From: Mobula hypostoma
Lineage: Eukaryota
Direction of reading: 5' to 3'
Assembly: GCF_963921235.1 (NCBI RefSeq)
Contig: NC_086097.1
Span: 18,664,001 to 18,728,000 of the forward strand
Length of the DNA: 64,000 bases
The position numbers and the translations under genes are program-made. Under the pieces are notes generated by a model. It saw only the letters and a list, made by a program, of their open reading frames with translations. It ran no database searches and was not told the DNA's origin. Positions 281 through 62,460 of the stretch are shown here, piece after piece. The stretch's first letter is position 1; each line of letters begins with the position of its first letter.

Positions 281-1016
281 TCATAGTGTTGTTCCGAATC
301 AAGCTGTATATTTCAGGATCAACTTTATTCATCATATACATTTACATGTATTAGGAATTTGCTGTGGTGTGGAAGCTACATGCAACAAAAATCAACAACA
401 TTCAACAATGAAAAAGAATAAAGAATTATATAAAGTAATGTTTCAGGTTAAAGTACGGATGTGGAATAAAATGTGCATAAATACTAGCATGTATTTACAA
501 TGTAAGCAGCATTATAAATACATGCTGGCATTTATATAATTATGCACATTGGAAGATCTATGTTGAGGTGTTCAGGACATTCAAAATGAATGTCACACAA
601 ATGCAGCAGATTTTGAAGTTATCTATTGTATTGACACAGACCTTAAAAGTGTTTTGGTGGAGTGTCATTGATTAAGGCACCGTCAGAGTTGATAAGTTGA
701 GGAACATGTTGATACAGTCTCAAAGTAAAAACTGGTATTTCAGGAGAAGCTACCAGCAGAGGCACACCGCCATGTTTGGGTGGAAACAGGTGAAGAGAGC
801 CATGTGTCCTCAACTTGGATATCACGAGGAGGACAAAATGGGGAGCACCAGAGTGATGGAAGGCTCAGGTGAGAATGTGAATAGTATTGTTCAGTTAAAA
901 AGAGGCCGATGCTTATTGTCTTTTTTACAATGCTGCATCAGATCCTGAGTAACAATAATTTTCCTCTCCTTTACACTTGTGCACTGAAGAATGGCAATAC
1001 ACAATCTTGAACCTTA

Positions 1017-1118
1017 AAGCAACACACATAAATTTCTGGAGGAGCTCTGCAGCTTAGGCAGCATCTATGGAAATGAGTAAACGGCTGACGCTTTGGGTGG
1101 AGACTCTTCTTTGGACCT
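1017..1118 (-). mobile_element. Degenerate short Penelope-derived terminal unit
   Basis: Similar to 19700-19795 (ggcagcatctatgga...gacgcttt...gagactctt); ends at the eroded hammerhead motif. Confidence 0.55.
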
Positions 1119-4225: not shown

Positions 4226-4321
4226 TTCACAGTACTCAGAATACAGAGTACTGTGAGTCAATATCAAAGCCTTATAAAGACTCAGGATGTATTTGGTCCA
4301 TTAATTGGCTATTCTACATTG

Positions 4322-4545
4322 CCCAAAAAGCAAAGTGCTGGAGGAACTGTTCAGTGAGTTAGCCAACATCTGTGGAGGCAAAGAGATGGTTAGCACTTCA
4401 AGATGAGACCTGGCACCAGGTCCTAATGAAAAATCTCAACCCAAAACATCAAGCATCCTTCTACCTCCACAGAAGATGCCTGACCTGTTGAGATCCTCCA
4501 ACGTTTTGTTCTTTGCTCCAGATTACAGCATCAGCAGAGTCTTGT
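4322..4545. mobile_element. Old palindromic Penelope-derived unit
   Basis: Diverged inverted arms (gctggaggaac...catctgtggagg / cctccacagaagatgcc...cctccaac) with the junction at an eroded hammerhead motif. Confidence 0.6.
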
Positions 4546-8476: not shown

Positions 8477-8885
8477 GAAACGAGAGCGACGCACTAAGTG
8501 TTCGCAGGAGAAGAGGTATTGACACACTCAGTACCTCTATGAGGAGAGAGAGTGATACACTGTGTGCTTGCACAAGGAGAGAGAACTGTTTACACTCTGT
8601 ATTGCACGATGAGGGAGAGTGACACAATGTGCCTGTCGGAACTGGGAATATGACACAATGTGCTTGCATGTGGAGAGAGAACTGTACACTACATGCTTGC
8701 ACAAGGAGAGCGAATGACCCACTGTGGGCATGCAGGAAGAGTCCGGACAACAGACTCTGTGCAGGAGGGAGAACTGTAGACTCTGTGCCTGCACGAGAAA
8801 GGGGGATGACGCACCATGTGGCTGCCCTAGGAAAGAGTAACACACACTCTGAGCCTGCAAAAAGAAAGAGAAATATCCACACTGT

Positions 8886-9052
8886 AAACGCAAAATAATC
8901 TGCAGATGCTGGGGTCAAAGCAACACTCACCACACGCTGGAGGAACTCAGCAGGTTGGGCAGCATCCATGGAAAAGATTGGTCGACGTTTCAGGCCGGAA
9001 CCGTGACGAAGGGTTCCGGCCCGAAACGTCGACCGATCTTTTCCACGGATGT
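8886..9052. mobile_element. Palindromic Penelope-derived unit with 12-bp TSD
   Basis: TSD tatccacactgt at 8874-8885 and 9053-9064; inverted arms meet inside the hammerhead motif. Confidence 0.85.
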
Positions 9053-10536
9053 TATCCACACTGTGTCTGCAAGATGAGAAGGAATGACACACACTGTGCT
9101 TGCAGGAGGAGAGATAACTCTACACTCTACGTCTACATGAGGAGGGATAAAGACACACTTTGTGCCTGCACGAGGAGAATGACTGTGCTTGAAAGAGGAG
9201 AGAGAACTGTATGTTCTGTGTCTGCACCAGGAGGGAGAAATGTAGACTCTGAGAATTACACATACTGTGCCTGAACAAGGAGAGATAATGACAGACTGGC
9301 CTAGCATGAGGAGGGACAAACACATACACTGATCCTGCAGGAAGAGGCAGAATGGCACGCTGTGTCTGCATGGGGAGAGCTTACTGTACACTCTGTGTCA
9401 GCACGAATAGAGATAAGGAAACTACGTCTGCATAACCACAGAGAATGATGCAGCCAGTGCCTGCCTGAGGGGGAAAATGATTCTGAGAGCCCGCACAAGG
9501 GGAGAGAATCACACAATCTACGCCTGCATGAGCAGACCCAACAACAGAGTCTGAGTACACCAGAAAAGGGAACGACAACACCTTGTGCATACACAAGGAG
9601 CGAGAAAACACACATTGTGCTTGCTCATCGAGGGAGAACGGTACACTCAGAGAGAAGTGGACACAGTGCCCAGCACGAGGACAGTGAATGATGCTCCCTG
9701 TCCTTGTCGATACGGGAGAACAGCAGACACCGAGCCTGCATGAGGAGGGAGGACGGCACACTCAGTTGCCAACACCACGGAGCACAGTGGCACAACAATG
9801 CGGGCACGAGGTGGAAGAATGAGGGACTCTGTGCTTGCTCAGGGAAAGAGAAGGACACGTCTGCACGAGGGGACAGGTTACTTCGTGCTTGCCAGTGGAG
9901 AGAGAATTGGACAATCTGTCCCTGCACGAGGAGGGAGAACTGTAGACCTTGTCCCTGCACGAGCAGGGAGAGCAAAACACTCGATCTCTGCAGGAGGAGG
10001 GAAAATAACACACTCTGTTCCTCCATCAGGAGGGAGAATAACACACTCTGTCCTTGCACAAGGAGGGAGGATAACACAATTTATCCCTTCAAGAGGAGGG
10101 AAAATAACACACTTCGTCCCTGCATAAAGAGGTAGAAAAACACTCTCTGTCCCTGCACAAGAAGGGAGAATAAAACACCATCTGTGCCCCTAGAAGAGAA
10201 AATGACACGCTCCTTGCTTGGACAAGCAGTAAGAACTGTACGGTACATACCTGCAGGAGCAGAGAGAAATACGCACCCTGTGCTTGCGTGAGGAGGGAGT
10301 GCAATGCACGCTGAGCTTCCACCAGTAAAGAGAACGACTTACTCTGTCCTTGCACAAGGAGAGTGAATGATACGCTCTCTGCGTGCACCACGAGAGAAAA
10401 CCGTACTCTCTGTGCCTGCACGAGGAAGGGGAATGAATACTCTGTTCCTCCTCAAGGGGAGAGTATGACACATTCTTTGCCTGAACAAGGGCTGAGAACT
10501 GTGCACACTGAGCCTGCACTGCTTTATCTGCCCTGA

Positions 10537-11086
10537 TGCCAGGAGCCGTCTGTAGAGGGGAGGGTACTGACAGTACCTCCAGTTGATCTGTCTTTTTGTG
10601 TGTTTGCCCCGAGCCATCAGTCTGTGGTTTTGCATTGCCACGTGCTCTTATTTGTTTTCATACCCCATGTGATCCTGTCCCCACTCCTGCTCCACTCCGG
10701 CCCCTGTATTACTGAGTACTCCGTCTCTCATCTCTTTCTCATTATTACCTGTTTTGCTGCCACTTCTGTCTCATTGTGCTCCACCTATCATCTGCCTCTC
10801 TGTTTATTGCTCAGTGTATTTTAGTCCTATGTTTTCACCTGTTTGTTGCCAGATTCGCCAGTAAATTATCCTGAGCCTTTCCAGCATTTGTATTTGTACT
10901 CTGTCTGTCTGAATATCGACTCTGCCTGTTTCCCAGTTTTGGTTTTTGGATTTCTCTGGATGTTTTGGTCTCTGCCTGAACTTTGACGCCAACTCTGTTG
11001 CCCCCCCCTGGATTTGCTACTCAGTAAATGTCACAGTGCACACAGTACTCGGTCTGCAATTGGGTCCCTGCTTCAGCGTCCTGACA
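10537..11086 (+). mobile_element. Probable solo LTR
   Basis: Termini tgccagga...tcctgaca (near-inverted, TG...CA); non-coding; interrupts the satellite; no TSD recognised. Confidence 0.6.
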
Positions 11087-11498
11087 GGTACACTCTGTGA
11101 TAGCACAAAGAGAGACACTACGCATTCTGTGCCTGCACGGGAGGAGATTAAGGCACACTGTGCCTCCTCCTGGATATAGAACTTCACCATCTATCCCTGC
11201 ACAATAACACACCGTGCATGCACAAGGAGAGAGATCAACGCACTTGGGAGCTGGAATGGCTCATATTGTGCCTGCAGGAGGAGAGAGAACAATCTACTCT
11301 GTGCTTTCATGAGGAGAGACCTGCATACTCAGTGTCTGTGTGAGGAGGGAGAACGATGAATCTGCTATATATTTGCATGTGAAGTGAGAACTGTGCTCTC
11401 TGTGCCTGTGTATGGAGAGAAACAACATTCTCTGTACATGGTTGCACGTGAATTGAGAAATGCACCCTTTGTGCTTGTACGTGGAGAAGGAACTACAC

Positions 11499-14110
11499 TG
11501 TTATGTTTTGTAACTTGAAAACATAAAAACTAATTAGAAAAAGACAAGGGAGCCTGGAGATAACTCATGTATGTTCACTTTTACTTTAAGCGAGATGCAC
11601 ACATGTAGCACATGGTGCCATAATGATGTATACTATTTACATACTTTTACAGATAACTATATATAACTGTATAACAGTTACAGCAGGGAAACAGGCCATC
11701 TCGGCCCTTCTAGTCCGTGCTGAATGCTTACTCTCACCTAGTCCCATCTACTTGCACTCAGCCCATAACCCTCCATTCCTTTCCTGCCCATATACCTATC
11801 CAATTTTTTTTTTAATGACGAAATCGAACCTGCCTCTACCACTTCTAATGGAAGCTCGTTCCACACAGTTACCACTCTGAGTAAAGAAGTTCCCCCTCGT
11901 GTTACCCCTAAACTTTTGCCCCTTAACTCGCAACTCATGTCCTCTTGTTTGAATCTCCCTTACTCTCAATGGAAAAAGCCTATCCACGTCAACTCTATCT
12001 ATCCCCCTCATAATTTTAAATACCTCTATCAAGTCCCCCCTCAACCTTCTATGTTCCAAAGAATAAAGACCTAACTCGTTCAACCTTTCTCTGTAACTTA
12101 GGAGATCAAACCCAGGTAACATTCTAGTAAATCTCCTCTGTACTCTCTCTATTTTGTTGACATCTTTCCTATAATTTGGTGACCAGAACTGTACACAATA
12201 CTCCAAATTTGGCCTCACCAATGCCTTGTACAATTTTAACATTACATCCCAACTCTTATACTCAATGCTCTGATTTATAAAGGCCAGCATACCAAAAGCT
12301 TTCTTCACCACCCTATCCACATGAGATTCCACCTTCAAGGAACTATGCACCATTATTCCTAGATCACTCTGTTCTACTGCATTCCTCAATGCCCTACCAT
12401 TTACCATGTATGTCCTATTTTGATTAGTCCTACCAAAATGTAGCACCTCACATTTATCAGCATTAAAATCCATCTGCCATCTTTCAGCCCACTCTTCTAA
12501 CTGACCTAAATCTCTCTGCAAGCTTTGAAAACCTACTTCATTATCTACAACATCACCTAGCTTAGTATCATCTGCATACTTACTAATCCAATTTACCACC
12601 CCATCATCCAGATCATTAATGTATAAGACAAACAACATTGAACCCAGTACAGATCCCTGAGGCACACGACTAGTCACCAGCCTCCAACTTGACAAACAGT
12701 TATCCACCACTGCTCTCTGGCATCTCCCATCCAGCCACTGCTGAATCCATTTTACTACTTCCATATTAATACCTAACGACTGAACCTTCTACTACTTCAA
12801 TATTAATACCCAACGATTGAACAATAACCCATAATGTATTATGTATACAACAAAAGCGCATTCAAACAATGTATTTACAATATTACTAAAGTGTACAACA
12901 CTCCTCCCTGCTTAGCTAGAAACTCCAAATCAATATAGAATGCATCTCAATTTATATACTTTTGGGATAACATCTTTCCTGATAAGGGAGGTCACTCTGT
13001 TTGACAGGAGAAACATGTGGCTGTGAAAACAATTTCGGGTTCTAGGTCCTCCTCCATAGTGGTTGTAGGAGTTGACTCTGAGACTGCAGGAAGTGGTTCT
13101 GACAGATCTGGACACTTTTCTTCTCCACTTCTTGGCTTTCCTCTCTGGATGTTGAGTTTGCACTCACGATTAAAAATGCTGCACCTCACACCAGTTTTTC
13201 AGAGTTGGTCTACCACCAATCACTGATCAGAAGTAAGAGAAAAGACCAACCTATACACTTAGGGTCGCACTCAAGGTTAAGAGGGCTACACTTCCCAGCA
13301 GTTTTCCCAGAGTTGAACTGTGACCAATCATTGAGTGGGATTTATTAGAAAGGGTGAATAAAATAAGGCAGGCACACGCTGCATGGTCATTGTTGTGAGT
13401 GGGCCAGTGTTGGAGTAGCTTTGGCTCATCAGGCTTCTGCATTTTCAGGCTCAGACCAGGTATTTGGTAGGTTTCTCTTTTTTTTCTTTATCCTTCATTC
13501 CTGGTGTATTAGGGCTCGGTTGGTGCAGTGAGAATGGCTCCGGGGCAGTGTGGTGTTACAAAATTGGTATTTGTTACTTATTGGCTATTTCAATTGCTTT
13601 AAAAGACTGCTCAGTCTCTCCAGTATACAATATCCAGTTATCTGTTGTGTAATCCAACACATCACTCTTCCTAATGTAGCCAGCCATTTCTGCTCTTTTT
13701 TATGATTATTTCTATTTATGAACCCTGCAAATTTTTCCATTTTCTGTCTTTATTTTAAACTTGAACGTCTTCTCCTCCAAAGAGATATGTTCCACTGCTT
13801 TTTTTTAAACTCGATATCTTGCTGCACTTCATCAGTTAGGTAGTTGTCCAGGTTCATTTTAAAAATACCTCATTACCACTGCTATGTTTTGTAACTCCAA
13901 AACATAAAACCAAATTAAAAGGAAAACAAGGGAGCCAGGAGATAACTCAAGTATGTTCGTCTTTACTTTAAGCAAGGTACATATGTATCACGTAGTGCCT
14001 GATGACGTATGCCATTTATGTACTTTTGCAGATAATCCACAATGCATCATGTAAACAACCAAGAATCCTTACTCAAACCATACATGTACAATATTATTAA
14101 ATAAACAACA
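11499..14110 (-). mobile_element. Internally deleted Gypsy element with two LTRs
   Basis: LTRs at 11499-12900 (split by CR1) and 13881-14110, TG...CA; PPT (rc ctcctccct) at 12901; PBS-like (rc cctcattacca) at ~13869; flanks tacac / tgcac. Confidence 0.85.
11660..12822 (-). mobile_element. 5'-truncated CR1 LINE inserted in an LTR
   Basis: 322-aa ORF 11796-12764 with PQGSVLG, YADD and RPNLEYCVQFWSP; 3' UTR tail; ataac on both sides. Confidence 0.93.
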
Positions 14111-14503
14111 TGCACACCCTGTGTTGGCATGTGGAGAGAGAACTGCACACTCTATACTTGCAAATAGAGGGTGCTGTGGACCCTGTGACCGATCTGATAG
14201 ATGTACTGCACACTGTGCCTGTAAATGGAGGGTGTGAGGCACACACACGCGTAACACACATTCTGTGTGCCAGAACACCAAGGGTGTAGTGCCCTTGTTG
14301 AGCTTGCACATAGTGTGTACAGACCATGGCAGTTACCGTACCTCACATGGCCTGTAACAAACATTTGACATTGCAGCTGAGTAGCTGAAGTGCGGAAGTG
14401 CAATACAGAAAGTCTGGAATTCAGCTGGAGACACAGGCCTTACCTACAGAGGGAAGGCTTGTTGAAGGATGACATAAAGGGGCAGTCGATACCCAAGACA
14501 TTT

Positions 14504-14639
14504 CTAGTCCTGACGAAGGGTCTCGGCCTGAAACGTCGACTGCGCTTCTTCCTATAGATGCTGCCTGGCCTGCTGCGTTCACCAGCAACTTTGATGTATG
14601 TTGCTTGAATTTCCAGCATCTGCAGAATTCCTGTTGTTT
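14504..14639 (+). mobile_element. Short Penelope-derived unit with 6-bp TSD
   Basis: TSD acattt at 14498-14503 and 14640-14645; homologous to the 3' terminus of the Penelope fragment at 19662-20294. Confidence 0.85.
14506..14541 (+). ncRNA. Minimal type I hammerhead ribozyme motif
   Basis: AGUC-CUGACGA-AGGGucucggCCU-GAAA-CG-UC-GACU: both core boxes, stem I AGUC/GACU, short stem II, palindromic ACGU stem III, GUC triplet. Confidence 0.75.
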
Positions 14640-14699
14640 ACATTTTTGGTGTGTTTACCAGTTGATGAAGAGCAGCTCGACATATGCAGTACTGTTGTC

Positions 14700-15189: not shown

Positions 15190-15312
15190 AGTCCTGATGT
15201 AGGGTCTCGACCTCAAACGTCCTTCTGTCTCCACACACGCTGCCTAACCCATCGAGCTCCTCCAGCAGTTCATCTTTTGCCCCAGATTCTAGCATTAGCA
15301 GCTTTCCGTGTC
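15190..15312 (+). mobile_element. Degenerate Penelope-derived unit
   Basis: Starts agtcctgatgtagggtctcgacctcaaacgtc (eroded hammerhead). Confidence 0.65.
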
Positions 15313-18735: not shown

Positions 18736-19661
18736 ATAAGAATTTGCCTTTCCCTTTGTAACTTCAGTTACCCTTTCTACAAACTCACTTGTCAGTAATG
18801 GTGAGGGACTTCAGTTGTCTGGTAAGGTGAGAAGCTGTGTTGTTCTCTTTGGAACCAAGGGTGTTAGGAAAACACCTGTTGGTGATATTTAAATTCATGG
18901 AGGGTCTGAACTGATTAGATAGAGAGAAACTATTTCCATTAGCAGAGGGGACAAGAAATAGAAGATGTTCTGTAAAAATGGAGTGTGTGCGAAGATGCAA
19001 AAAGAGCATAAGGAATATTTCTAGCCCAAGTGTTTGAGGGTCTGGAATGCAATGCCTGGGAAGAAAGTGGTTCAATCAAAGCAATGAACAGGGAACACAG
19101 TCCCGATGATCCTTTGGTCTCATTACCTGAAGATGACATGAGGGCTGTGTTCATGAGAGTAAATCCAAGGAAAGCATTCGGTCCGGATGGAGTACCTGGC
19201 CGAGTACTGAAGCCCTGGGCTGACCAACTGGCTGGTGTAGTCACAGATATCTTCAACCTCTCTCTCTGGCAGTGTGTGGTACCCACCTGCTTCAAGCAGG
19301 CTTCAATTGTACCAGTGCCTAAGGAAAGTGTGATAACCTGCCTCGATGACTATCGCCCAGTTACATTTACATCCACAGTGATGAAGTGTTTTGAGATGCT
19401 GGTGCTGAAACATATCAGCTCCTGTCTGAATGGTGACTTGGACCCACTCCAATTCACCTACCAAAGCAACAGGTCTACAGCAGATGCTATCTTGTTGGCT
19501 CTTCACACAGCCTTGGAACATCTGGAGAGCAAAGATGCATACATCAGCATGCTCTTTATCAATTACATCTTGGCGTTTAACATCATCACCAATTCAAGTC
19601 AAGTCACTTTTTATTGTCATTTCGACCATAACTGCTGGTACCAGGACACAGTAAAAACAAG

Positions 19662-20294
19662 AACACGAGGAATTCTGCAGATGCTGGAAATTCAAGCAAC
19701 ACACACAAAAAATGCTGGTGAATGCAGCAGGCCAGGCAGAATCTCTAGGAAGAGGTACAGTCGACGTTTCGGGCCGAGACTCTTCGTCAGGACTAACTGA
19801 AAGAAGAGATAGTAAGCGATTTGAAAGTGGGAGGGGGAGGGGAAGATCCGAAATGACAGGAGAAGACCGGGGGGGGAGGGATGGGGCTAAGAGCTGGAAA
19901 GTTGATTGGCAAAAGGGATACGAGGCTGGAGAAGGGAGAGGATCATGGGACGGGAGGCCTAGGGAGAAAGAAAGGGGGAGGGGAGCCCAGAGGATGGGCA
20001 AGGAATTATATTGAGAGGGAGGGAGAAAAAGGAGAGAAGATAGATAGATAGATAAATAAATAAAGGATGGGGTACGAGGGGGAGGTGGGGCATTAACAGA
20101 AGTTAGAGAAGTCAATTTTCATGCCATCAGGTTGGAGGCTACCCAGACGCAATATATGGTGTTGTTCCTCCAGCCTGAGTGTGGCTTCATCTTGACAGTA
20201 GAGGAGGCCGTGGATAGACATATCAGAATGGGGATGGGACATGGAATTAAAATGTGTGGCCACTGGGAGATCCTGCTTTCTCTGGCGGACAGAG
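19662..20294 (-). mobile_element. 5'-truncated Penelope-like element (GIY-YIG C-terminus, 3' UTR, terminal unit with hammerhead at 19759-19794)
   Basis: ORF 20093-20302 PVATHFN...GLLYC...RLEEQ..ILRLGSLQPDGM resembles the C-terminal part of Penelope GIY-YIG endonucleases; pyrimidine-rich UTR. Confidence 0.85.
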
Positions 20295-21329
20295 CAAGAC
20301 AACGTTTTTCAGGACCATGGTGCTACATCACAATCACTCCCTGAAAACTAGTCAGTAATCTGGCCTTCAATACACTTTGTGCGATTGGATCATAGATTTC
20401 ATCATGTAGATCCCGGTCAGTTCAGATTGACAAGTACATCTTCTCCACAATCTCCATCAGCACAGGAGCCCCACAGGGATGTGTGCTTAGTCCGCTGCTC
20501 TTCCTATGTGTGCGAGGCTAATTACAGCTCCAACACCATGTACAAGTTTGCTGATGACACTACTTTTGCGGGCTGTATCTAAAGGGGTGACGAATCAGCG
20601 GACAGGAGGGAGATTGAGAACTTGGCTGAGTAGTGTAATAACAACAGCCTCTTACTCAATGTCAGTAAGACCACAGAACTGATTGTAGACCAGGAGAGGG
20701 AAACCAGGGCTTCACGAGCCAGTACTCATCAGAGGATCAGAGGTGGAGAGGGTCAGTAACTTTAAATTCCTGGGTGTCACTAGCTCAGAGCCCCTGTCCT
20801 GGACCCACCATATAAATATTATTGCACAGAAAGCACGACAATGCCTCTACTTCCTCAGTAGTCTGCGGAGATTCGGCATCTTATCGAAAGCCTTGGCAAA
20901 CTTCAATAGATGTGTGGTGGAAAGGGTGCTGACTGGCTGCATTACGGCCTGGTATGGGAACACCAATACCCTTGAGTGGAAAATTCTACATAAGGTAGTG
21001 GATTTGGCCCAGTACATCATGGGTAGAACTCTTCCAACCATTGAGCACGTCTAGATGAAATGTTGCTGTAGAAAAGCAGGATCCATCATCAAAGACCCTC
21101 TCCACCCAGGCCATACTCTCTTCTTGTTGCTGCCATTGGGTAGAAGATACAGGTGTCTCAGGACTCACACCACCAGGTTCATGGACATTTACTACCCCTC
21201 AACCATCAGGCCCATGAACAAAAGGGGATAGCTACACTCATTTACAGACACATTCAAGAGCTATATTATATTGTTATTTCCTGCTTATTATTTGGTACTA
21301 TTTATAGTGTCTTTAAAAAGTATTCACCC

Positions 21330-21419
21330 GAAGGGTCCCGGCCCGAAACGTTGACTGTACCTCTTCCTATAGATGCTGCCTGGCCTGCTGCCTTCCCCAG
21401 CATTTTTTATGTGTGTTGC
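21330..21419 (+). mobile_element. Short Penelope-derived unit inside the Tc1 TIR
   Basis: Starts within the hammerhead core (gaagggtcccggcccgaaacgttgact); flanked by ttcacc. Confidence 0.75.
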
Positions 21420-22859
21420 TTCACCTGCCCCCCTCCCCCGGAAGTTTTTGTGTCTTATTGTTTTACAACATTGAATCACAGTGGGTGTAGTCTGGCTTTT
21501 TTGACGCTGATCAACAGACAGACTCCTTCGGGTCAAAGTGAAAACAAATTTCTACAAATTGGTCTAAATTTATTACACTTATAAAACACAAAATAATTGA
21601 TTGCATAATTACTCACCCACTTCAAGTCAGTATTTAATAAATGCATCTTTGGCAGCAATTGCAGCCTTGAATCTGTGAGCATAAGTCTCTATCAGCTTTG
21701 CACATCTGGCCACTGCAATTTTCCCCCATTCTTTTTTACTGAACTGCTCAAGCTCTATCAGATTGCATGGGCATTGTGAGTGAACAGCCCTTTTCAAGTC
21801 CAGCCACAAATTCTCAATTGGATTGAGGTCTGAACTCTGACTTACCCACTCCAGGACATTAACTTTGTTGTTTTTAAGCCATTCCTGTGTAGTTTTAGCC
21901 TCTATGCTCGGGATCATTTTCTTGCTGGAAAACAAATCTTCTCCCAAGTTGCAACTTTCCTGCAGACTGCATTAGGTTTTCATCCAGGATTTCCCTGTAT
22001 TTTGCTGCATTCATTTTACCCTCTACTCTCATAGACCTTCCAGGGCCTGCTGCAGTGAAGCATTCCCAAAGCATGATACACCACCATGCTTCATGGTAGG
22101 GATGGTGTATTTTTGATGATGTGCAGTGTTCAACTTACGCCAAACATAGCGTTTAGTCAGGTGGTCAAAAAGCTCAATTTTGGTTTCATCAGACCATGGA
22201 ACCTTCTTCCAGCTGACTTCAGAGTCTCCCAGATGACTTCTGGCAAACTAGTCGAGATTTCATGGGAGATTTTTTCCCAGCAATGGTTTCTCTTTGCCAC
22301 TTTCCCATAAAGCTGTGACTGGTGAAGCACCCGGGCAACAGTTGTATGTGCTGAAGTTTTAACACATCCAGAGTTGTCACAGGTCTCTTGGTGGGCTCCC
22401 TCACTAGTCCCCTTCTTGCAGTCACTCAGTTTTTGAGGACTGGCTGCTCTAGGCAGCTTTACAGCTGTGCCATATTCTTTCCATTTCTTGATGATTGACT
22501 TAACTGTACTCCAAGGGATATTCAGGGACTTGGAAATTATCTTGCATCCATCTCCTGACTTGTGCTTTTCAATAACCTTTCCGTGGAGCTTCTTGGAGTG
22601 ATCCTTTGTCTTCATGGTGTAGTTTTCGCCAGTAAACTGACTCAGCAGCAGTTGGACCTCCTCCTCCTCCGCTTTCTCCTCCTCCTCCTTCTACTTCTTC
22701 TTCTTCTAGTCCAACTTAAAGTTGCATTACCACCGCCAAATGGACTGCAGTGTTAAGTGGAGTGTTGGGAAATAAAACACCTGCTAGTTCTTGATCAAAT
22801 GAAAACTAAATTACCCCAAAAAGCCCTATAGATAGTAAAAAATAAAAGACATCATTGTG

Positions 22860-23640: not shown

Positions 23641-23685
23641 AACTAGGTAAGGTTTTTAAATGAAACCTGACAACCCCCAAAGCCA

Positions 23686-23904
23686 CATACATCAAAGTTG
23701 CTGGTGAACGCAGCAGGCCAAGCAGCATCTATAGGAAGAGGCGCAGTTGACGTTTCAGGCCGAGACCCTTCGTCAGGGTCTCGGCCTGAAACGTCGACTG
23801 CGCCTCTTCCTATAGATGCTGCTTGGCCTGCTGCGTTCACCAGCAACTTTGATGTATGTTGCTTGAATTTCCAGCATCTGCAGAATTCCTGTTGTTTGCG
23901 TTTA
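23686..23904. mobile_element. Young palindromic Penelope-derived unit with 14-bp TSD
   Basis: TSD aacccccaaagcca at 23672-23685 and 23905-23918; ~84-bp near-perfect inverted arms. Confidence 0.9.
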
Positions 23905-24480
23905 AACCCCCAAAGCCAGTAGTGCAGCCTGTTTTTGCTTTCTTTCAAGCTTATATGCTTCACATTGTAAAAGAATTTCAGCTTTCATAATGATGACAAC
24001 ACCTACACACCCCACAGGGATGTTTTCCAACAAGAGACGAGGAATAGTAAAGCATAGGATGCCCAATTTTAAGTTGAGTCAATATAATTCCTTCCCTTCT
24101 TGTCTTACCCCCTTCTCCCATTAATCCAACAGTTATATGTATTTTGTAAAGATGTCTCCCTTATGCCCATAATCCCACAGGTATTGCCATAATCCCCTAA
24201 TTCTTAGCCCCACCAACCCCGTAGCTTCTGATTTGCTAAATGGAAGGTCTATATCCACAGATCAACTTTTAACAGCATTGTCGGTCAAACAATCAACTCA
24301 TTCATTCCCCTCAACACCTCTATGTGCTGGAACCCATATGAAGCAGACATGTAATCCAATACTTTGAATATGAAGTAAAGTTTGAAGAGCTTCCTGCAGT
24401 AAATCTGACCCACTGCTAGAATGACCTGTTTTAAGACTAGTCAAAGCCAAAAAAGAATCTAAACAAATTGTAACTTTACA

Positions 24481-24577
24481 CTAGGAACTCTGCAGATGCT
24501 GGAAGTTCAAGCAACACACGTCAAAGTTGCTGGTGAACGAAGCAGGCCAGGCAGCGCCTCTAGGAAGAGGTACAGTC
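24481..24577 (-). mobile_element. 97-bp Penelope-derived unit starting at the predicted ribozyme cleavage site
   Basis: 5' end GACTGTACC; flanks ttgtaactttaca / ttttaactttgca (11 of 13 match). Confidence 0.8.
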
Positions 24578-44093: not shown

Positions 44094-44192
44094 TACACAC
44101 ACAAAATGCTGGAGAAGCTCAGAAAGTCAGGTAGCATCTATGGAAAGGAGTAAAGAATCAATGTTTTTGGCCAAGATCCTTCATCAGGACTC
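44094..44192 (-). mobile_element. Degenerate Penelope-derived unit
   Basis: Ends ...ccttcatcaggact, at the start of hammerhead stem I on the minus strand. Confidence 0.7.
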
Positions 44193-53445: not shown

Positions 53446-53617
53446 ACCCTTCTGAGGATGCAAAAGGGGTGTGAGGATTAGTTTTGTTAATTGCTGGTGC
53501 CACTGAAAACCTGATTTAAACAAAGCCAGACCTCTTATACCCAGGCGAGGTTTGCCTGAAGTGGTTGCAAACTTGGTCTTACTTCAATAGTGAGGATACA
53601 GATTTATTCCTTCACAA

Positions 53618-53827
53618 TACACACAAAAAATGCTGGTGAACGCAGCAGGCCAGGCAGCATCTATAGTAAGAGGTACAGTCAATGTTTAGGAAAGTCCTGA
53701 TGAAGGGTCTGGGCCCTTAACGTCAACTGTGCCTCTTCCTATAGATGCTGCCTGGCCTGCTGCGTTCACCAGCATTTCTTGTGTGTGTTGCTTGAAATTC
53801 CAGCATCTGCAGATTTCCTCATGTTTG
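53618..53827. mobile_element. Palindromic Penelope-derived unit
   Basis: Inverted arms; agtcctgatgaaggg at the junction; flanks attccttcac / attctttcac. Confidence 0.85.
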
Positions 53828-55518
53828 AGAATTCTTTCACTAAACTCATTTACGGTGATTTTTTAAAGTTACCATCGATTCGTAAACAGTGAAATCAGTC
53901 TGCGTACGACCTACATTTCCAGCCACTACACCAGCATGCCCTGGATAACGTTCCGTGTCAAGTAACATTTACATCATTCAACTGTCAGGCATTAATGATC
54001 TTCAGCAAGCGGGAAGCTACCATTAAAATTCAATGGCATTTCCAGGTATCAACTGTCTATGAGCTGTCATTGACAAGTTAGTCTGGATCAGCCACACATA
54101 ATTACTGTGGCTAAAGACAGCAGGTCAGGGGTGGGAGTAATTAGAGTAGCTGGGGAATTTAAATCCTATTGAATGAATAAATGTAGAAATATGAAACTGG
54201 TGTCAATAACATGACCATGAAACTACGACATTGTTGTTAAAAACCCACCAGCTGCCAACTGCACCAGGTCTGTCATGAATATAGATCATGATGCTTACCT
54301 TCCTCCTCACTTCAGGGATATCCAAGTCCTGTGAAAGAACAAATTCAAATTCAAGATTGTTTACTGTCATTTCCAATACATAGGTGCAAAGAGAACAAAA
54401 TCATTGTTACTCTGGATCCAACGCAGCACCGAGAAAAACACAATAAAATGAAGGACACAATAATAAAAAACACAATAAATATAAATACATAAGATGGCTC
54501 GTATACATAGATTGATTATATGTCCATAAAGTGATACTAGGCACAGGAGTGTCTGTACATAAGGTTACTGACAGGAGATGATAAAGTACTGGTGATTAGG
54601 GGCGTGGAGGGGTTGGATTAGTGGGTGGAGATGTTGATCAGCCTTACTGCTTGAGGAAAGTAAATGTTTTTGAGTCTGGTTGTCCTGGTGTGGATGCTAT
54701 GTAGCCTTCTCCCTAACGGGAATGATCCTTCATGATGTTACTGGCCACTTTGTCAGTAATGTAAAGAATCTAATGAAGAGAGTACAAATTCTGTTGATGT
54801 CTCGCACAGACATTGGTTAACAATGCAGATGCAGGAGAGTGTAGTTACTGGAAAATGGAGCAATTCAGGGGGTTAAGAAGGTATTATTCTGGAGACACTC
54901 TCAGTAGAAGCTCACATACCCAAAGCTATGACATTTTTATATCCTTACGATCAAAGGTAACAGTACAATACAATTTGAAGAGTTACAATGACATTGTTTA
55001 CTTCAATACTTTGGGTTGACTAATGGTTCTTTTGTGATACATAGTGGAAGTACATAAAAGGCCCAAATGTCTTTTGGAGAAACTAATTAACACAAATATT
55101 CTAAACCCTAGATGACAGAGAACCAGACACTCAAAATTAATGTTGCTGGGGTTGCCCTGTGAGTACATAAATATGACAAATACATAAAAATTATTGATTG
55201 GCTGTGCATGTGACCATGTTTGATATGCTAACTGACTACATTTGCCAGGTCTGCCAGTTGCAGTCAAGTCACAATGGTGCCCATGTTGCCTGGTTTGATG
55301 CAAGCCAATTAACACAATCCCATTGTCATAATGTTTGGTTCTTGCATGTGCAATCTCTAGGTCTTTGGAGCGGCCTGTGATTTTAACTTCAATTTACAAA
55401 AAACTGAAGGCTAATTGTAAGTTTCCTGAACGTATTTACATTTAGAATAAGAACTGAAGCCTGGTTCTTGTTTGAATTAATATCTGCTATATTCATATAA
55501 CTCCAGGATATTCCCTAA

Positions 55519-55748
55519 CACAGTAGAGTGCAGATGCTGGAATTTGGAGCAATTCAACACAGGTTATGGGATAATTGACATTTTGGGTCGAGACCCTATA
55601 TCAGCACACGTGGATTAATAAAGCAACATATATCACAGTAGAGTGCAGATGCTGGAATTTGGAGCAATTCAGCACAGGTTATGGGATAATTGACATTTTG
55701 GGTCGAGACCCTATATCAGCACACGTGGATTAATAAAGCAACATATAT
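55519..55748. repeat. Tandem duplication, 2 x 115 bp, one mismatch
   Basis: Direct comparison of 55519-55633 and 55634-55748. Confidence 0.95.
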
Positions 55749-59052: not shown

Positions 59053-60695
59053 CAGTTCCTATAGAAAGTATTCACACCCCCTCAGAAGTTTTCATACTTT
59101 ATTGTTTTACAGCATTGAATCACAGTGGATTTTATTTGGGTTTTTTGACACTGATCAACAGAAAAGTACTCTTTTGTGTCAAAGTGAAAACAGATCTCTA
59201 CAAAGTGATCTAAATTAATTTCAAATATAAAACACAAAATAATTAATTGCATCAGTATTCACCCCCCACTTTAATATGACACACCAAATCATCACTGGTG
59301 CAACCTGATGGTTTTAGCAGTCACATAATTAGTTAAATGGAGATCTGTTTTTGGAGACCTGCGTGCAGTCAAGGTGTTACAATTGATTGTAGTAAAAATA
59401 CAGCTGTATCTGGAAGGTTCAATTGCTGGTAAATCAGAATCCTGGCAAAAAACTACACTATGAAGACAAAAGAACAATTAAAGCAACTCTGTGAAAATGT
59501 TTTTGAAAAGCACAAGTCAGAGATGGATGCAAGAAAATTTTCAAGTCACTGAGTATCCTTTGGAGTACAGTTAAGTCAATCATCAAGAAATGGAAAGAGT
59601 GTGGCTCTGCTGTAATTCTGCCTAGAGCAGGCTTTCTTCAAAAACTGAGTGACCGTGCTAAAAGAGGACTAGTGAGGGAGGCCACCAAGAGACCTGTGAC
59701 AGCTCCGCGGTAGTTACAAACTTCAGTGGCTGAGGTGTTAGAGACTGCACATACAATAACTGTTCCCCGGGTGCTTCACCAGTCACAGCTTTATGAGAAA
59801 GGGGCAAAGAAAAAACAACTGTTGGGAAAAATCTCACATGAAATCTCAGAGTTTGCTAGGAGGCATGTAGGAGACTCTGAAGTCAGCTGAAAGGTGGTTC
59901 TATGATCTGATGAAACCAAAATTGACCTTTTTGGTCATCAAACTAAATGCTATGTTTGGTATAAACCAAACACTACACATCATCAAAAACACGCCATCTC
60001 TACTGTGAAGCATGGTGGTGGCTGCATCATGCTGTGGGGATGCTTCACTGCAACAGGCCCTGGGAGGCTTGTGAAGGTAGAGGGTAAAATGAATGCAGCA
60101 AAATACAGGGAAATCCTGGAGGGAAACCTGATGCAGTCTGCAAGAGAACTTCAACTTGGGAGAAGATTTGTTTTCCAGCAAGACAATGACCCCCAAGCAT
60201 AAAGACAAAGTTCCACAGGAATGGCTTAAAGACAACAAAGTTAATGTCCTGGAGTGGCCAAGTCAGAGTCCAGACCTCAATCCAATTGAGAATTTGTGGC
60301 TGTCCTTGAAAAAGACTGTTCACTCACGATTGCCATGCAATCTGACAGAGCTTGAGCAGTTTTGTAAAGCAAAATGGGGGAAAATTGCAATGTCCAGATG
60401 TGCAAAGCTGATAGAGACCTATCCACACAGACTCAAAGTTGTAATTGCTGACAAAGGTGCATCTACTGAATACTGACTTGAATGGAGTGAGTAATTATGC
60501 AATCCATTATTTTGTGTTTTATATTTGTAATTGATTTAGATCACTTTATAGAGATCTGCTTTCACTTTGACACTAAAGGCTTTTTCTGTTGATCAGTGTA
60601 AAAAAAACAAATTAAATCCACTGTGATTCAATGTTGTAAAACAATAAAACATGAAATCTTGCAGTGAGGGGGGTGAATACATTTTGTAGGCACTG
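59053..60695 (+). mobile_element. Full-length defective Tc1 transposon (DD34E, IR-DR)
   Basis: TA TSD; ~215-bp TIRs with internal gtattcaccc repeats; transposase 59460-60476 with SDET, VKHGGG, QQDND and SPDLNPIE, broken by stops and frameshifts. Confidence 0.95.
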
Positions 60696-60739
60696 TAAGA
60701 AAGCAGTACCTGATACTGAGCAATGTGGGAAAGCAGTAG

Positions 60740-62460
60740 CCATCAGTGTGTGTTGTCAGAGAGCAGTGCCCATCCTATCAGTGGGTTATGTTTGAGAGCA
60801 CTGCCCATCAGTAAGTGATTTCAGAGGAAAGTAGTCATCAATGGACAGTATCAGAGGACAATGCCATCAGTACGCGCTGTTAGAGGACAGTGCCCATCAC
60901 TGTGTGTAATGTCAGAGGACAGAACCCACTAGTGGACAATGTCAGAGTGCAGAGCTCTTCAGTTGGTGATTTCAGAGGGCAGTGCCTATCAGTGTGTAAT
61001 ATTAGAGGGCAGTGCCCATCAGTGGGTGATATTAGAGGGCAGTGCCCATCAGTGGGTGATATTAGAGGGCAGTGCCCATCAGTGGGTGATATTAGGGGAC
61101 AGTGCCCATCAGTGTGTAATATCAGATGATGGTGCCCATCAGTGTGTGATATCAGAGGACAATGCCCTTCAGATGGTGATGTCAGAGGACAGTGCCCATC
61201 GGTGGGTGATGTCAGAGGACAGTGCCCATCGGTGGGTGATGTCAGAGGACAGTGCCCTTCAAATGGTAATGTCAGAGGACAGTGCCCATCGGTGGGTGAT
61301 GTCAAAGGGCAGTGCCCATCGGTGGATGATGTCAAAGGGCAGTGCCCATCAGTGGATGATGTCTGAGGGCAGTGCCCGTCGGTGGGTGATGTCAGAGGAC
61401 AGTGCCCAGCACTGCGTGTAATGTCAGAGGACAGAACCCATTAGTGGTCAATGTCAGAGTGCAGAGCCTTCAGTTGGTGATTTAAGAGGACAGAGCCCAT
61501 CAGTGTGTAATGTTAGAGGGCTGTGCCCATCAGTGCGTGATGTCAGAGGACAGTGCCCATCGGTGGGTGATGTCAGAGGACAGTGCCCATCCCATCAGTG
61601 GGTGACATCAGAGGACAGTGCCCATCAGTGTGTAATATCAGATGATGGTGCCCATCAGTGTGTGATATCAGAGGACAGTGCCCTTCAGATGGTGATGTCA
61701 GAGGACAGTGCCCATCGGTGGGTGATGTCAGAGGACAGTGCCCATCGGTGGGTGATGTCAGAGGACAGTGCCCATCGGTGGGTGATGTCAGAGGACAGTG
61801 CCCCTCGGTGGGTGATGTCAGAGGACAGTGCCCATCATTGTGTGATATCAGTGCCCTTCAGATGGTGATGTCCGAGGGCAGTGCCCGTTGGTGGGTGATG
61901 TCAGAGGACAGTGCCCATCACTGCGTGTAATGTCAGAGGACAGAACCCATTAGTGGTCAATGTCAGAGTGCAGAGCTCTTCAGTTGGTGATTTCAGAGGG
62001 CAGAGCCCATCAGTGCGTGATGTCAGAGGACAGTGCCCATCCCATCAGTGTGTGATATTAGAGGGCAGTGCCCATCAGTGGGTGATATTTAAGGGCAGAC
62101 CCCATCAGTGTGTGATATTAGAGGGCAGTGCCCATCAGTGGGTGATATTTAAGAGCAGTGCCCATCAGTGGGTGATGTTAGAGGATTGTGCCCATCAGTG
62201 AGTGATATTAGAGGGCAGTGCCCAACAGTGGATGAGATCAGAGAGCAGGGCCTAGCAGCGGGCAACATCAAAATGCAGAGCCCATCAGTGTATGATGTCA
62301 GAGGGCAGAGTACAGCAGTGGGTGATGTCAGAGGACAATGCCAGAGGGCAGACCCATTTGTGTGTGCTGTCAGTGTCAGCAGTGAGTAAGGTCTAAGGGC
62401 AGTTTCCATTCGTGAATGATATCAGAGTGCGTGACCTTTAGTAGGTGATATCAGATGGTA
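60740..62460. repeat. 30-bp minisatellite (cagtgcccatcrgtgggtgatgtcagagga)
   Basis: Roughly 50 units; homogeneous core with decayed edges. Confidence 0.95.

What the first reader, a model, noticed from the sequence alone, without database searches (positions are those of the whole stretch)
14504..14639. Family of tiny mobile units built around a minimal hammerhead ribozyme
Seen: AGUC CUGACGA AGGG-ucucgg-CCU GAAA CG UC GACU at 14506-14541 has both hammerhead core boxes, a 4-bp stem I, a short stem II, a GUC triplet and a loopless palindromic stem III (ACGU). About 12 related copies of ~100-230 bp occur in the window (1017, 4322, 8886, 14504, 15190, 21330, 23686, 24481, 44094, 53618, 55525 twice). 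Several have their own TSDs. The same unit terminates a GIY-YIG-bearing Penelope fragment at 19662-20294. Established: Penelope-like elements carry minimal type I hammerheads in their terminal repeats, thought to cleave as dimers. Inference: here the ribozyme-bearing terminus forms an abundant non-coding, retrozyme- or SINE-like family of several ages, dependent on Penelope enzymes. I cannot tell whether it has been described in this lineage.
Basis: partly seen in the sequence, partly recalled or inferred. Interest (0 to 1): 0.85.

Follow-up and report, generated by a model that had tools for sequence, protein, structure and literature searches.

The report
Truncated Penelope element ends with hammerhead
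The short repeats are the cut-down tail ends of an abundant, recently active Penelope-like jumping gene that carries a small self-cutting RNA motif, a pattern already described for such elements, so the finding is real but ordinary.

Summary
Window 14506-14541 carries every conserved hammerhead core position, a 4-bp stem I, a short stem II and a loopless ACGU stem III. Related units lie at almost all the listed places, and several have target-site duplications. The exact 37-nt motif occurs 32,520 times in the 3.48-Gb genome.

The unit is the last ~140 nt of the 3' UTR of an autonomous Penelope-like element (PLE) with a YIDD reverse-transcriptase motif and a GIY-YIG domain. Young copies show a continuum of 5' truncations: 291 of 697 youngest copies run at least 31 nt further into the PLE UTR. 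They also show frequent head-to-head inverted pairs and two alternative 3' ends ~35-40 nt apart. All three are published PLE hallmarks.

Head-to-tail arrays are almost absent (4 junctions genome-wide), so the family is not retrozyme-like. There is no SINE head. Copies starting at the ribozyme cleavage site are very rare (3).

One point goes beyond the textbook picture: 5' ends pile up in and just before the hammerhead. No Rfam hammerhead model matches, and no covariation could be obtained.

Verdict: new member of a known kind, low interest.

The parts
14506..14541 (+). Minimal type-I hammerhead motif. Stem I 5' strand is 14506-09, the CUGACGA box is 14510-16, stem II is 14517-29 and GAAA is 14530-33. 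CGUC follows at 14534-37, with predicted cleavage after C14537. Stem I 3' strand is 14538-41.
   Evidence: Read directly. The exact 37-mer occurs 32,520 times in the genome, control 0. No Rfam model matches.
14504..14639 (+). Discrete ~136-nt insertion: the hammerhead plus a ~100-nt tail. It is 99% identical to the 3' end of the young PLE family.
   Evidence: An empty-site contig joins 14497 to 14640 in run X23.
14498..14503 (.). Left copy of the target-site duplication ACATTT. The right copy is at 14640-14645.
   Evidence: the joint shares 4 letters on both sides.
14538..14639 (+). Tail downstream of the cleavage site. I infer that this is the module where the PLE reverse transcriptase binds and initiates.
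   Evidence: Inference by analogy with the PAc element (PMC11167929, main text read). 3' ends of copies are bimodal at unit positions ~97-105 and ~134-144.
19646..20295 (-). Longer 5'-truncated copy of an older subfamily (84% identity). It holds the end of the GIY-YIG ORF (20099-20293), the 3' UTR, the hammerhead (19760-19795) and the tail.
23680..23905 (.). Head-to-head inverted pair. The minus arm is 23680-23777 and ends at the short 3' form. The plus arm is 23775-23905 and ends at the long 3' form. The junction lies inside the hammerhead. The whole pair is flanked by a 14-nt target-site duplication (23672-85 / 23905-18).
   Evidence: (I14). The spurious miRNA-like Rfam hits come from this hairpin.
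53615..53826 (.). Head-to-head inverted pair: minus arm 53615-53687, plus arm 53693-53826, which carries a full but mutated hammerhead.
8886..9055 (.). Old head-to-head pair: minus arm to 8997, plus arm from 9004. The junction lies inside the hammerhead. Candidate 9-nt target-site duplication at 8877 / 9056.
21329..21421 (+). Copy truncated inside the hammerhead (it starts at the CGAAGGG of the core). It ends at the short 3' form and has the target-site duplication TTCACC.
24483..24577 (-). Copy whose 5' end is exactly the first base after the predicted cleavage site (GACUG...). It is the only such case in the window.
   Evidence: Genome-wide this class is very rare.
15190..15300 (+). Old copy starting at the 5' edge of the hammerhead, with a degenerate core.
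44095..44191 (-). Old copy (74% identity) starting at the 5' edge of the hammerhead.
1006..1116 (-). Very old copy with a degenerate hammerhead.
4306..4545 (.). Very old inverted pair. The plus arm 4420-4545 is clear. The minus arm 4306-4410 is seen only by eye.
55516..55745 (-). Two tandem 115-bp units, 98% alike, of an internally deleted, degenerate derivative. Similarity to the unit is marginal.
   Evidence: (D20).

Best explanation
What it is. The ~140-nt unit is the 3'-terminal non-coding module of an abundant, recently active autonomous Penelope-like element (PLE). Its single ORF ends in a reverse-transcriptase region and a GIY-YIG endonuclease domain. About 300 nt of C-rich 3' UTR follow the stop codon. 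Then comes a minimal type-I hammerhead, and then ~100-140 nt in which, by analogy with the studied Poseidon element of Anolis, the element's protein binds and starts reverse transcription.

How the short copies arise (inferred). They are not a separate family. They are the short end of a continuum produced when target-primed reverse transcription stops early. Most often it stops in or just before the hammerhead, or the new DNA turns back on itself there and gives head-to-head inverted pairs.

The hammerhead itself (inferred from published work on other PLEs). It cannot form stem III alone, so it should cut only when two copies pair, probably helped by the element's protein. Cutting is not the step that makes the inserted copies.

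Shown here: anatomy, copy numbers, the distribution of 5' ends, the inverted pairs, the two 3' ends, the target-site duplications and the empty site. Inferred: where the enzyme starts, why it stops at the hammerhead, and that the ribozyme cuts.
For: 1. Link to the PLE.
- 23 of the 30 best genomic copies continue at least 53 nt upstream of the hammerhead at 98-100% identity. 5' ends are spread from 1448 down to beyond 1, and 5 copies fill the whole 1.5-kb flank.
- L008 holds an open 402-aa reading frame with a YIDD box and a GIY-YIG domain. Pfam gives E 2.7e-4, 21.6 bits against a 22.6 cut-off.
- Nearest Atlas clusters carry HTH_animal, GIY-YIG and RVT_1.

2. Genome-wide exact counts, youngest subfamily.
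- 697 copies reach the cleavage site.
- 445 have the whole hammerhead.
- 349 have 11 more nt upstream.
- 291 have 31 more nt upstream.

3. Not retrozyme-like. There are 4 head-to-tail junctions against 32,520 motifs.

4. PLE hallmarks.
- Among the first 100 places there are 12 head-to-head pairs within 5 kb, 1 direct pair and 0 tail-to-tail pairs.
- Among the 65 chromosome-C1 places there are 9 close head-to-head pairs.
- A 14-nt target-site duplication flanks the whole pair at 23680-23905.
- 3' ends are bimodal at ~1597-1605 (12 of 46 hits) and ~1634-1644 (13 of 46). This matches the published 30-40-bp 'tail' (PMC8557442 passages; PMC11167929 main text).

5. Cleaved RNA is not the template. 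Only 3 copies have A or G directly before the first post-cleavage base. This agrees with the in vitro result for PAc (PMC11167929).

6. Recent activity. Copies are 98-100% identical, and an empty-site contig exists.
Against: - 5' ends are not random. 96 of 445 copies end within the 11 nt before the hammerhead (8.7 per nt), against 58 in the next 20 nt (2.9 per nt) and roughly 0.15 per nt further up.
- 8 of 9 insertion events in the window, and about 9 of ~20 in 200 kb of arbitrarily chosen sequence, start inside the hammerhead. A discrete short RNA could also explain this.
- The 252 copies that reach the cleavage site but lack an exact hammerhead mix true truncations with CpG decay. I could not separate the two.
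- The reverse-transcriptase part was recognised only by its motif, not by a Pfam hit.
- No Rfam hammerhead model matches.
- The stems never co-vary. In decayed copies the motif is no better kept than the tail: 88% against 84-88% at non-CpG sites.
- The thermodynamic minimum-energy folds of the monomer and the dimer are not the hammerhead fold.
Confidence: 0.8

Rival explanations
1. The short units come from a discrete sub-genomic RNA of ~140 nt. This RNA would be made from long PLE copies by internal transcription start or by processing at the 5' edge of the hammerhead. It would then be preferentially reverse-transcribed because it is the minimal template. The units would behave like a SINE, but their source genes would be the PLE 3' ends.
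For: - There is a threefold excess of 5' ends in the 11 nt before the hammerhead over the next 20 nt.
- Young copies L001, L006, L024 and L028 start at 1496-1501.
- The 14505 copy is a clean 136-nt insertion with a target-site duplication and an empty site.
- In PAc the minimal active template runs from about the cleavage site to ~150 nt downstream (PMC11167929, main text read).
Against: - 5' ends are spread over at least 30 nt inside the motif and 30 nt before it, rather than at one base.
- Loop-poor hairpin junctions at 1475-1487 point to reverse-transcriptase turn-back, not to an RNA end.
- No RNA evidence could be obtained.
Confidence: 0.2
2. An independent, self-propagating non-autonomous family (SINE-like or non-LTR-retrozyme-like). 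Its master copies would be short hammerhead units that borrow PLE enzymes.
For: - Short units of several ages outnumber long ones in the window, 8 of 9.
- Non-LTR retrozymes derived from PLE pLTRs are reported in vertebrates (bioRxiv 10.64898/2026.07.22.740005; abstract, results and discussion read).
- One tandem dimer of a deleted derivative lies at 55516-55745.
Against: - Only 4 head-to-tail junctions exist in the genome.
- There is no RNA-polymerase-III-type head.
- The youngest short and long copies share the same exact 52- to 84-nt strings.
- Copy lengths form a continuum.
- Many old 'short' copies are preceded by a C/T-rich stretch that I read by eye as a diverged PLE UTR.
Confidence: 0.07
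3. The hammerhead-like string is not a working ribozyme here. It would be kept only as part of the protein-binding or turn-back structure at the element's end.
For: - No Rfam hit and no covariation.
- Predicted folds pair the CUGACGA box with CGUC.
- Insertions do not start at the cleavage site.
- PLE min-HHRs cleave poorly in vitro (PMC4209133 passages).
- Hammerhead mutants do not affect insertion in vitro (PMC11167929).
Against: - All invariant core positions are present. The two variants C and U at position 7, the one free core position, and U and C next to G12 all occur among 41,475 exact motifs.
- In the 65 locally held copies these two sites mark subfamilies whose tails and UTRs differ.
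- The homologous PAc motif cleaves with the expected C3/G8 mutant pattern when the protein is present (PMC11167929).
Confidence: 0.12

Closest known systems
Minimal hammerheads (min-HHR) in the pseudo-LTRs of Penelope-like elements (Cervera & de la Pena 2014, PMC4209133; section 5 and passages read)
   Same: - The core is the same, helix I is short (4-5 bp), and there is an unpaired base at the 5' side of helix II.
- There is no helix III loop, so dimers are needed.
- The motifs occur massively as single copies taken to be truncated PLEs.
- Dual motifs lie 100-700 bp apart on opposite strands.
   Different: - Far more copies here: 41,475 exact motifs, against about 4,000 in coelacanth and 9,000 in Xenopus in that paper.
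- Helix II here is shorter than the 7-8 bp described there for Schistosoma.
- This genome's family is not named there. The word 'shark' does not occur in that text, and I do not know the lineage of this genome.
PAc, a Poseidon-clade PLE of Anolis carolinensis (Frangieh et al. 2024, PMC11167929; main text read)
   Same: - A hammerhead lies ~100 nt upstream of the place where insertions end.
- There are two adjacent end points that define an optional 30-40-bp tail.
- Targets are AT-rich.
- Both DNA strands are used, which fits the head-to-head pairs.
- Uncleaved RNA is the template.
   Different: - In PAc the ORF starts inside the hammerhead. Here the frame through the motif closes after 14 codons and the young core reads CUGACGA, without AUG.
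- Nothing was tested biochemically here.
General PLE insertion architecture (Craig et al. 2021, PMC8557442; passages read)
   Same: - A high degree of 5' truncation.
- An inverted 5'-truncated copy adjacent at the 5' end.
- A 30-40-bp tail present at only one end.
   Different: - The partial-tandem pLTR of full-length copies could not be inspected here. The only hint is one same-strand motif pair 3.5 kb apart.
- That paper's passages, as far as I read them, do not map where the truncations fall relative to the hammerhead.
Non-LTR retrozymes of animals (Cervera & de la Pena 2020, PMC7229834, passages read; Li, Clavereau & Pollet 2026 preprint, abstract, results and discussion read)
   Same: Non-coding, carries a type-I hammerhead, is thought to depend on PLE enzymes, and is related to PLE pLTRs.
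   Different: - Retrozymes are head-to-tail tandem repeats of 170-400 nt that give circular RNAs, and they have canonical hammerheads with loops.
- Here tandem junctions are almost absent (4), the motif is the minimal type, and copies are dispersed monomers or inverted pairs.
5' truncation and 5' inversion of LINE-1 insertions
   Same: Early stop of target-primed reverse transcription gives many short 3' fragments. Use of a second primer gives inverted structures within one target-site duplication.
   Different: Here both arms end in the element's own 3' end. This makes true head-to-head dimers, not an internal inverted segment. The stops also cluster at one structured motif.

Membership tests
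Hammerhead ribozyme, minimal type I of PLEs | Invariant core: C3 U4 G5 A6 N7 G8 A9, G12 A13 A14, the A15.1-U16.1 pair, and a non-G at position 17. | tested here: met
   CUGACGA ... GAAA C G U C is read at 14510-14537. 41,475 exact genomic motifs allow only Y at position 7 and Y next to G12.
Hammerhead ribozyme, minimal type I of PLEs | Helices I and II supported by base pairing and covariation. | tested here: inconclusive
   AGUC/GACU and GGG..CC(U/C) can pair. The stems are invariant between subfamilies, so no compensatory change exists to count.
Hammerhead ribozyme, minimal type I of PLEs | Loopless palindromic helix III (ACGU), so that two motifs must pair. | tested here: met
   Read directly. 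A dimer is favoured by 8.3 kcal/mol in cofolding, but the predicted pairing is not the hammerhead one.
Hammerhead ribozyme (Rfam covariance models) | A match to a curated hammerhead model. | tested here: not met
   No hit at gathering score or at E up to 10, either on the whole window or on 14470-14570. My reading: the Rfam models include a helix III that this minimal motif lacks. The 2014 paper found such motifs with its own descriptor.
Hammerhead ribozyme | Self-cleavage after position 17. | not testable with these tools
   No raw RNA reads were on offer. All runs were contigs of guessed kind.
Penelope-like element (endonuclease-positive) | One ORF with a reverse transcriptase followed by a C-terminal GIY-YIG endonuclease. 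| tested here: inconclusive
   - GIY-YIG scores E 2.7e-4, 1 bit under the Pfam cut-off.
- A YIDD box and a QxxGxAMG motif are seen in the same open 402-aa frame.
- There is no RVT_1 hit, and only the C-terminal half was held.
- Atlas neighbours carry HTH_animal, GIY-YIG and RVT_1.
Penelope-like element (endonuclease-positive) | A hammerhead motif in the terminal repeat or UTR. | tested here: met
   The motif lies ~300 nt after the stop codon and ~100-140 nt before the 3' end.
Penelope-like element (endonuclease-positive) | Frequent 5' truncation and an adjacent inverted 5'-truncated copy. | tested here: met
   25 of 30 loci are truncated within 1.5 kb. There are 12 head-to-head pairs against 0 tail-to-tail pairs among 100 places. 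A 14-nt target-site duplication flanks a whole pair.
Penelope-like element (endonuclease-positive) | An optional 30-40-bp tail, often at one end only. | tested here: met
   3' ends cluster at ~1597-1605 and ~1634-1644. In the pairs 23680-23905, 53615-53826, L002, L020 and L025, one arm has the short end and the other the long end.
Penelope-like element (endonuclease-positive) | Partial-tandem pseudo-LTR upstream of full-length copies. | not tested
One same-strand motif pair 3.5 kb apart on C5 is only a hint.
Non-LTR retrozyme | Head-to-tail tandem repeats, each with a hammerhead. | tested here: not met
   4 junctions of tail end to hammerhead start within 14 nt in the whole genome. The pattern covers only the CCTGTTGTTT / CTGACGA variants.
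Non-LTR retrozyme | Expressed as small circular RNA. | not testable with these tools
   No RNA holder was listed.
SINE | A 5' head derived from tRNA, 7SL or 5S with an internal promoter. | tested here: not met
   No Rfam family reaches its gathering score anywhere in the window. The unit starts directly with the hammerhead.
SINE | A discrete full-length 5' end and its own subfamily lineage. | tested here: not met
   5' ends are spread over the motif and upstream. The youngest short and long copies share identical strings. No proper phylogeny was made.

The most novel reading that the evidence does not exclude
The hammerhead region may act at the DNA or template level as the preferred stop and turn-back point of PLE reverse transcription. 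Its self-complementary stems and the GTCGAC/ACGT/GGCC palindromes would let the new cDNA fold back, or let two cDNAs primed on both target strands pair. The element would then mass-produce ~140-nt dead-on-arrival copies and head-to-head dimers whose junctions sit inside the ribozyme. The motif would thus shape the insertion outcome, not only RNA processing. This would explain why at least 58% of the youngest copies end within ~65 nt around it.
Probability: 0.25. Interest if true: 0.45.

Novelty: new member of a known kind. Interest (0 to 1): 0.2.

Why it matters
The result adds a very large example to the known link between Penelope-like elements and minimal hammerheads: tens of thousands of intact motifs, still polymorphic. 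It also gives genome-wide numbers that agree with the single biochemical study of a PLE. Insertions do not start at the ribozyme cut, both target strands seem to be used, and there are two alternative 3' ends.

The pile-up of 5' ends at the ribozyme is a small, testable addition. It does not open a new kind of element. For annotation, these units should be masked as PLE 3' ends, not as a new SINE, a retrozyme or microRNA-like hairpins.

Tried and rejected
- Rfam. The gathering search and the E<=10 searches gave no hammerhead. The only hits (mir-3926, mir-H2 at 23734-23810) are the hairpin of an inverted pair.
It was not available.
- Unbiased sampling. I used exact pattern counts instead.
- A 65-nt tail query found nothing, because its words are too common in this genome. 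This says nothing about rarity.
CpG-tolerant long patterns were therefore not possible, and CpG decay remains mixed into the 697-to-445 drop.
- L003 and L016 as references first suggested discrete 793-bp and 1,221-bp elements. Both were artefacts of a truncated reference.
- Per-position conservation in 35 decayed copies did not single out the motif.
- Cofolding did not return the hammerhead pairing.
- RNA evidence. No RNA holder was listed. All four runs laid were contigs of guessed kind, and no table of molecule starts was produced.
- PDB sequence search with the ORF gave 0 matches. NCBIfam gave only a weak group-I-intron-endonuclease hit (E 0.02).
- Earlier-findings look-ups by place and by sequence gave nothing for this genome.
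- I did not run the search for homologous proteins or the representative search. The PLE clade (Neptune or Poseidon) is therefore left open.
- No Dfam or Repbase library is on hand, so I cannot say whether this family has a name.

Full report
NUMBERING
I use the coordinates of a natural long genomic copy as a ruler. Ruler 1501 is window 14505. The hammerhead is ruler 1502-1537, which is window 14506-14541. Predicted cleavage follows ruler C1533 (window 14537). The 3' product starts at G1534 (window 14538).

1. THE OBSERVATION
Window 14506-14541 reads AGUC CUGACGA AGGGUCUCGGCCU GAAA CGUC GACU. All invariant hammerhead core positions are there. Stem I is 4 bp, or 5 with a G-U pair. Stem II is short, with an unpaired A at its 5' side. 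Helix III is the loopless palindrome ACGU.

The exact 31-nt core recurs, within 3 mismatches, at 19760-19790(-) and 23746-23776(-); none were expected by chance. The bare pattern CUGANGA..GAAA..UC is not above chance in the window (4 found, 2.4 expected). The case therefore rests on the full motif and its repetition.

The minus arm at 4306-4410 and the two 55516-55745 units are only marginally above shuffles.

Target-site duplications are present at several copies. The copy at 19662-20295(-) does carry the end of a GIY-YIG ORF.

No Rfam hammerhead model matches, either at gathering score or at E up to 10, even on the 101 nt around the motif.

2. WHAT THE UNIT BELONGS TO
The window lies in a 3.48-Gb genome of 200 contigs. 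The 150-nt unit gave 1,491 first-look candidates. The 40 that were scored are almost all 98-100% identical.

In the 30 loci returned, 23 continue at least 53 nt upstream of the hammerhead at 98-100% identity. Two apparent discrete sizes, 793 and 1,221 bp, turned out to be artefacts of truncated references.

With L008 as reference the 5' ends fall as follows:
- beyond the 1.5-kb flank: 5 loci
- 213-224: 3 loci
- 420-476: 4 loci
- 645-851: 6 loci
- one locus each at 985, 1382, 1388, 1441 and 1448
- hairpin junctions at 1475, 1477 and 1487
- 1496, 1499, 1501 and 1501

L008 holds an open 402-aa frame with a QxxGxAMG motif, a YIDD box and a GIY-YIG domain. Pfam scores GIY-YIG at E 2.7e-4, one bit below its cut-off. 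The stop codon lies ~300 nt before the hammerhead, and a C-rich UTR lies between them. Atlas neighbours carry HTH_animal, GIY-YIG and RVT_1.

The unit is therefore the 3' end of an autonomous Penelope-like element.

3. NUMBERS ACROSS THE GENOME
Exact-pattern counts (the backwards-read control was 0 in every case):

| Pattern | Count |
|---|---|
| Hammerhead 37-mer | 32,520 |
| 35-mer allowing C/U at position 7 and U/C next to G12 | 41,475 |
| 39-mer of the tail | 9,460 |

For the youngest variant:

| Copies that reach | Count |
|---|---|
| G1534 | 697 |
| 1502 (whole hammerhead) | 445 |
| 1491 | 349 |
| 1471 | 291 |

So 42% of these copies run on into the PLE UTR. Another 8% end in 1472-1491 (2.9 per nt) and 14% end in 1492-1502 (8.7 per nt). 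The remaining 36% either end inside the motif or carry a mutated motif (at most 7.9 per nt).

Further upstream the density is about 0.15 per nt. This is scaled from 18 of 23 loci ending within 1,470 nt.

In sequence I did not select (window plus 200 kb taken at round coordinates, plus locus flanks), only 2 of 46 hits start downstream of 1535. Very short copies would escape BLAST.

There is thus a real pile-up of 5' ends in and just before the hammerhead, on top of a broad continuum.

Many old copies whose alignment begins at 1502 are preceded by C/T-rich sequence, which I read by eye as a diverged PLE UTR. One (L032) has ORF remnants 255 nt upstream. For those copies, 1502 is a conservation boundary and not an end.

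4. FEATURES THAT IDENTIFY THE MECHANISM
a. Inverted pairs.
- Among the first 100 places of the 115-mer there are 12 minus/plus pairs within 5 kb, one plus/plus pair and no plus/minus pair.
- Among the 65 places on contig C1 of the 52-mer, 9 pairs have only 31-95 nt between the two G1534.
- In the window, the pair 23680-23905 is flanked as a whole by a 14-nt target-site duplication. A pair is therefore one insertion event.
- Junctions lie inside the motif in the window pairs. In the young loci L002, L020 and L025 they are nearly loop-free at 1475-1487. That looks like turn-back of the nascent cDNA.

b. Two 3' ends. Ends cluster at ~1597-1605 (12 of 46 hits) and at ~1634-1644 (13 of 46). In the pairs 23680-23905, 53615-53826, L002, L020 and L025, one arm has the short end and the other the long end.

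c. Hardly any tandems. There are 4 junctions of tail end to motif start within 14 nt.

d. Hardly any copies starting at the cut. Only 3 copies have A or G before G1534. The window copy 24483-24577 is one such case in an older subfamily.

e. Recent activity. A contig of run X23 joins 14497 to 14640, skipping 142 nt with 4 shared letters. This is an empty site for the 14505 copy, which is thus a ~136-nt insertion with the duplication ACAT(TT) in an AT-rich target.

5. COMPARISON WITH PRINT
- Cervera and de la Pena 2014 (PMC4209133; abstract, section 5 and passages read) defined exactly this minimal motif, including the unpaired base before helix II. They placed it in PLE terminal repeats. They reported that most motifs are single and 'probably related to truncated PLEs', and that dual motifs lie 100-700 bp apart on opposite strands. 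They also reported poor cleavage in vitro except as dimers.
- Craig et al. 2021 (PMC8557442; passages read) list high 5' truncation, an adjacent inverted 5'-truncated copy, and a 30-40-bp tail often at one end only as standard PLE features.
- Frangieh et al. 2024 (PMC11167929; main text read) studied a Poseidon element. They showed that reverse transcription starts at two adjacent internal sites ~110 nt past the hammerhead. Both DNA strands are cut and extended. The minimal template begins about at the cut site. The ribozyme needs the protein. Uncut RNA is the substrate.
- Li, Clavereau and Pollet 2026 (preprint; abstract, results and discussion read; supplements closed) derive tandem non-LTR retrozymes from PLE terminal repeats. 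They note that most PLE insertions are 5'-truncated with a single terminal repeat.

Everything seen here fits these descriptions. The retrozyme label fails on the tandem test. The SINE label fails on the head and on the continuum of lengths.

6. RIBOZYME FUNCTION
I could not test cleavage.
- For function: the complete core. The two variable sites, position 7 (the one free core position) and the base next to G12, both occur among 41,475 exact motifs. In the 65 locally held copies they mark subfamilies whose tails and UTRs differ.
- Against, or neutral: no covariation, since the stems never vary. The motif is no better preserved than the tail in decayed copies. Minimum-energy folds are not the hammerhead.
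- In the young subfamily G8 lies in a CpG, so copies lose the core quickly. CTGACAA is seen in L017 and L033.

7. VERDICT
The units are ordinary products of PLE insertion in a genome where the family is unusually abundant and recently active. The concentration of 5' ends and turn-back junctions at the hammerhead is the only point that may go beyond what I found in print. I searched once ('hammerhead' + 'Penelope-like') and read the papers named above. I did not search specifically for that point, so I do not claim it is unpublished. I did not test that case.

Noticed in passing
window 8478-11430 and 14101-14172: A long, degenerate minisatellite with a 33-bp period (about 30 copies at 60-80% identity). 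One isolated unit lies at 14101-14172, close to the finding (families D2-D5).
   Followed up: no
window 60694-62316: A tandem array with a 30-bp period in three blocks (families D1 and D6).
   Followed up: no
window 19012-19800 (+): An open frame of 262 aa with a LINE-type reverse-transcriptase start (Pfam RVT_1, E 6e-6, below cut-off). It abuts and overlaps the 3' end of the PLE fragment on the other strand.
   Followed up: partly
window 21627-22690 (-) and 59520-60606: Remnants of a Tc1/Sleeping-Beauty-like transposase (HTH_SB E 5e-16, DDE_3 E 3.5e-5). A second copy lies in inverted orientation 37 kb away at 83-89% identity.
   Followed up: partly
window 23734-23810: Sub-threshold Rfam hits to the microRNA precursor models mir-3926 and mir-H2. 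They are produced by the near-perfect hairpin of the head-to-head PLE pair. Automatic miRNA prediction would probably be misled by such pairs.
   Followed up: yes
window 11477, 13858, 44817, 48498: Four copies of a ~70-nt repeat with an internal palindrome (TATGTTTTGTAAC ... AAAACATA). It is possibly a small inverted-repeat element (family D16).
   Followed up: no
window 14497/14640, run X23: A public-run contig holds the empty site of the 14505 insertion (it skips 142 nt). The insertion is therefore polymorphic or specific to a lineage.
   Followed up: partly
L017 and L033 (hammerhead core); window 14514-14515: In the young subfamily the essential G8 of the core is the G of a CpG (CUGA-CG-A). 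Copies with CTGACAA occur, so methylation-driven decay should inactivate the ribozyme faster than the rest of the unit.
   Followed up: no
G000:C1:2546805-2546874: Two intact hammerhead motifs abut head to head with no base between them. This is a perfect 70-nt palindrome centred on the motif's 5' edge (listing).
   Followed up: no
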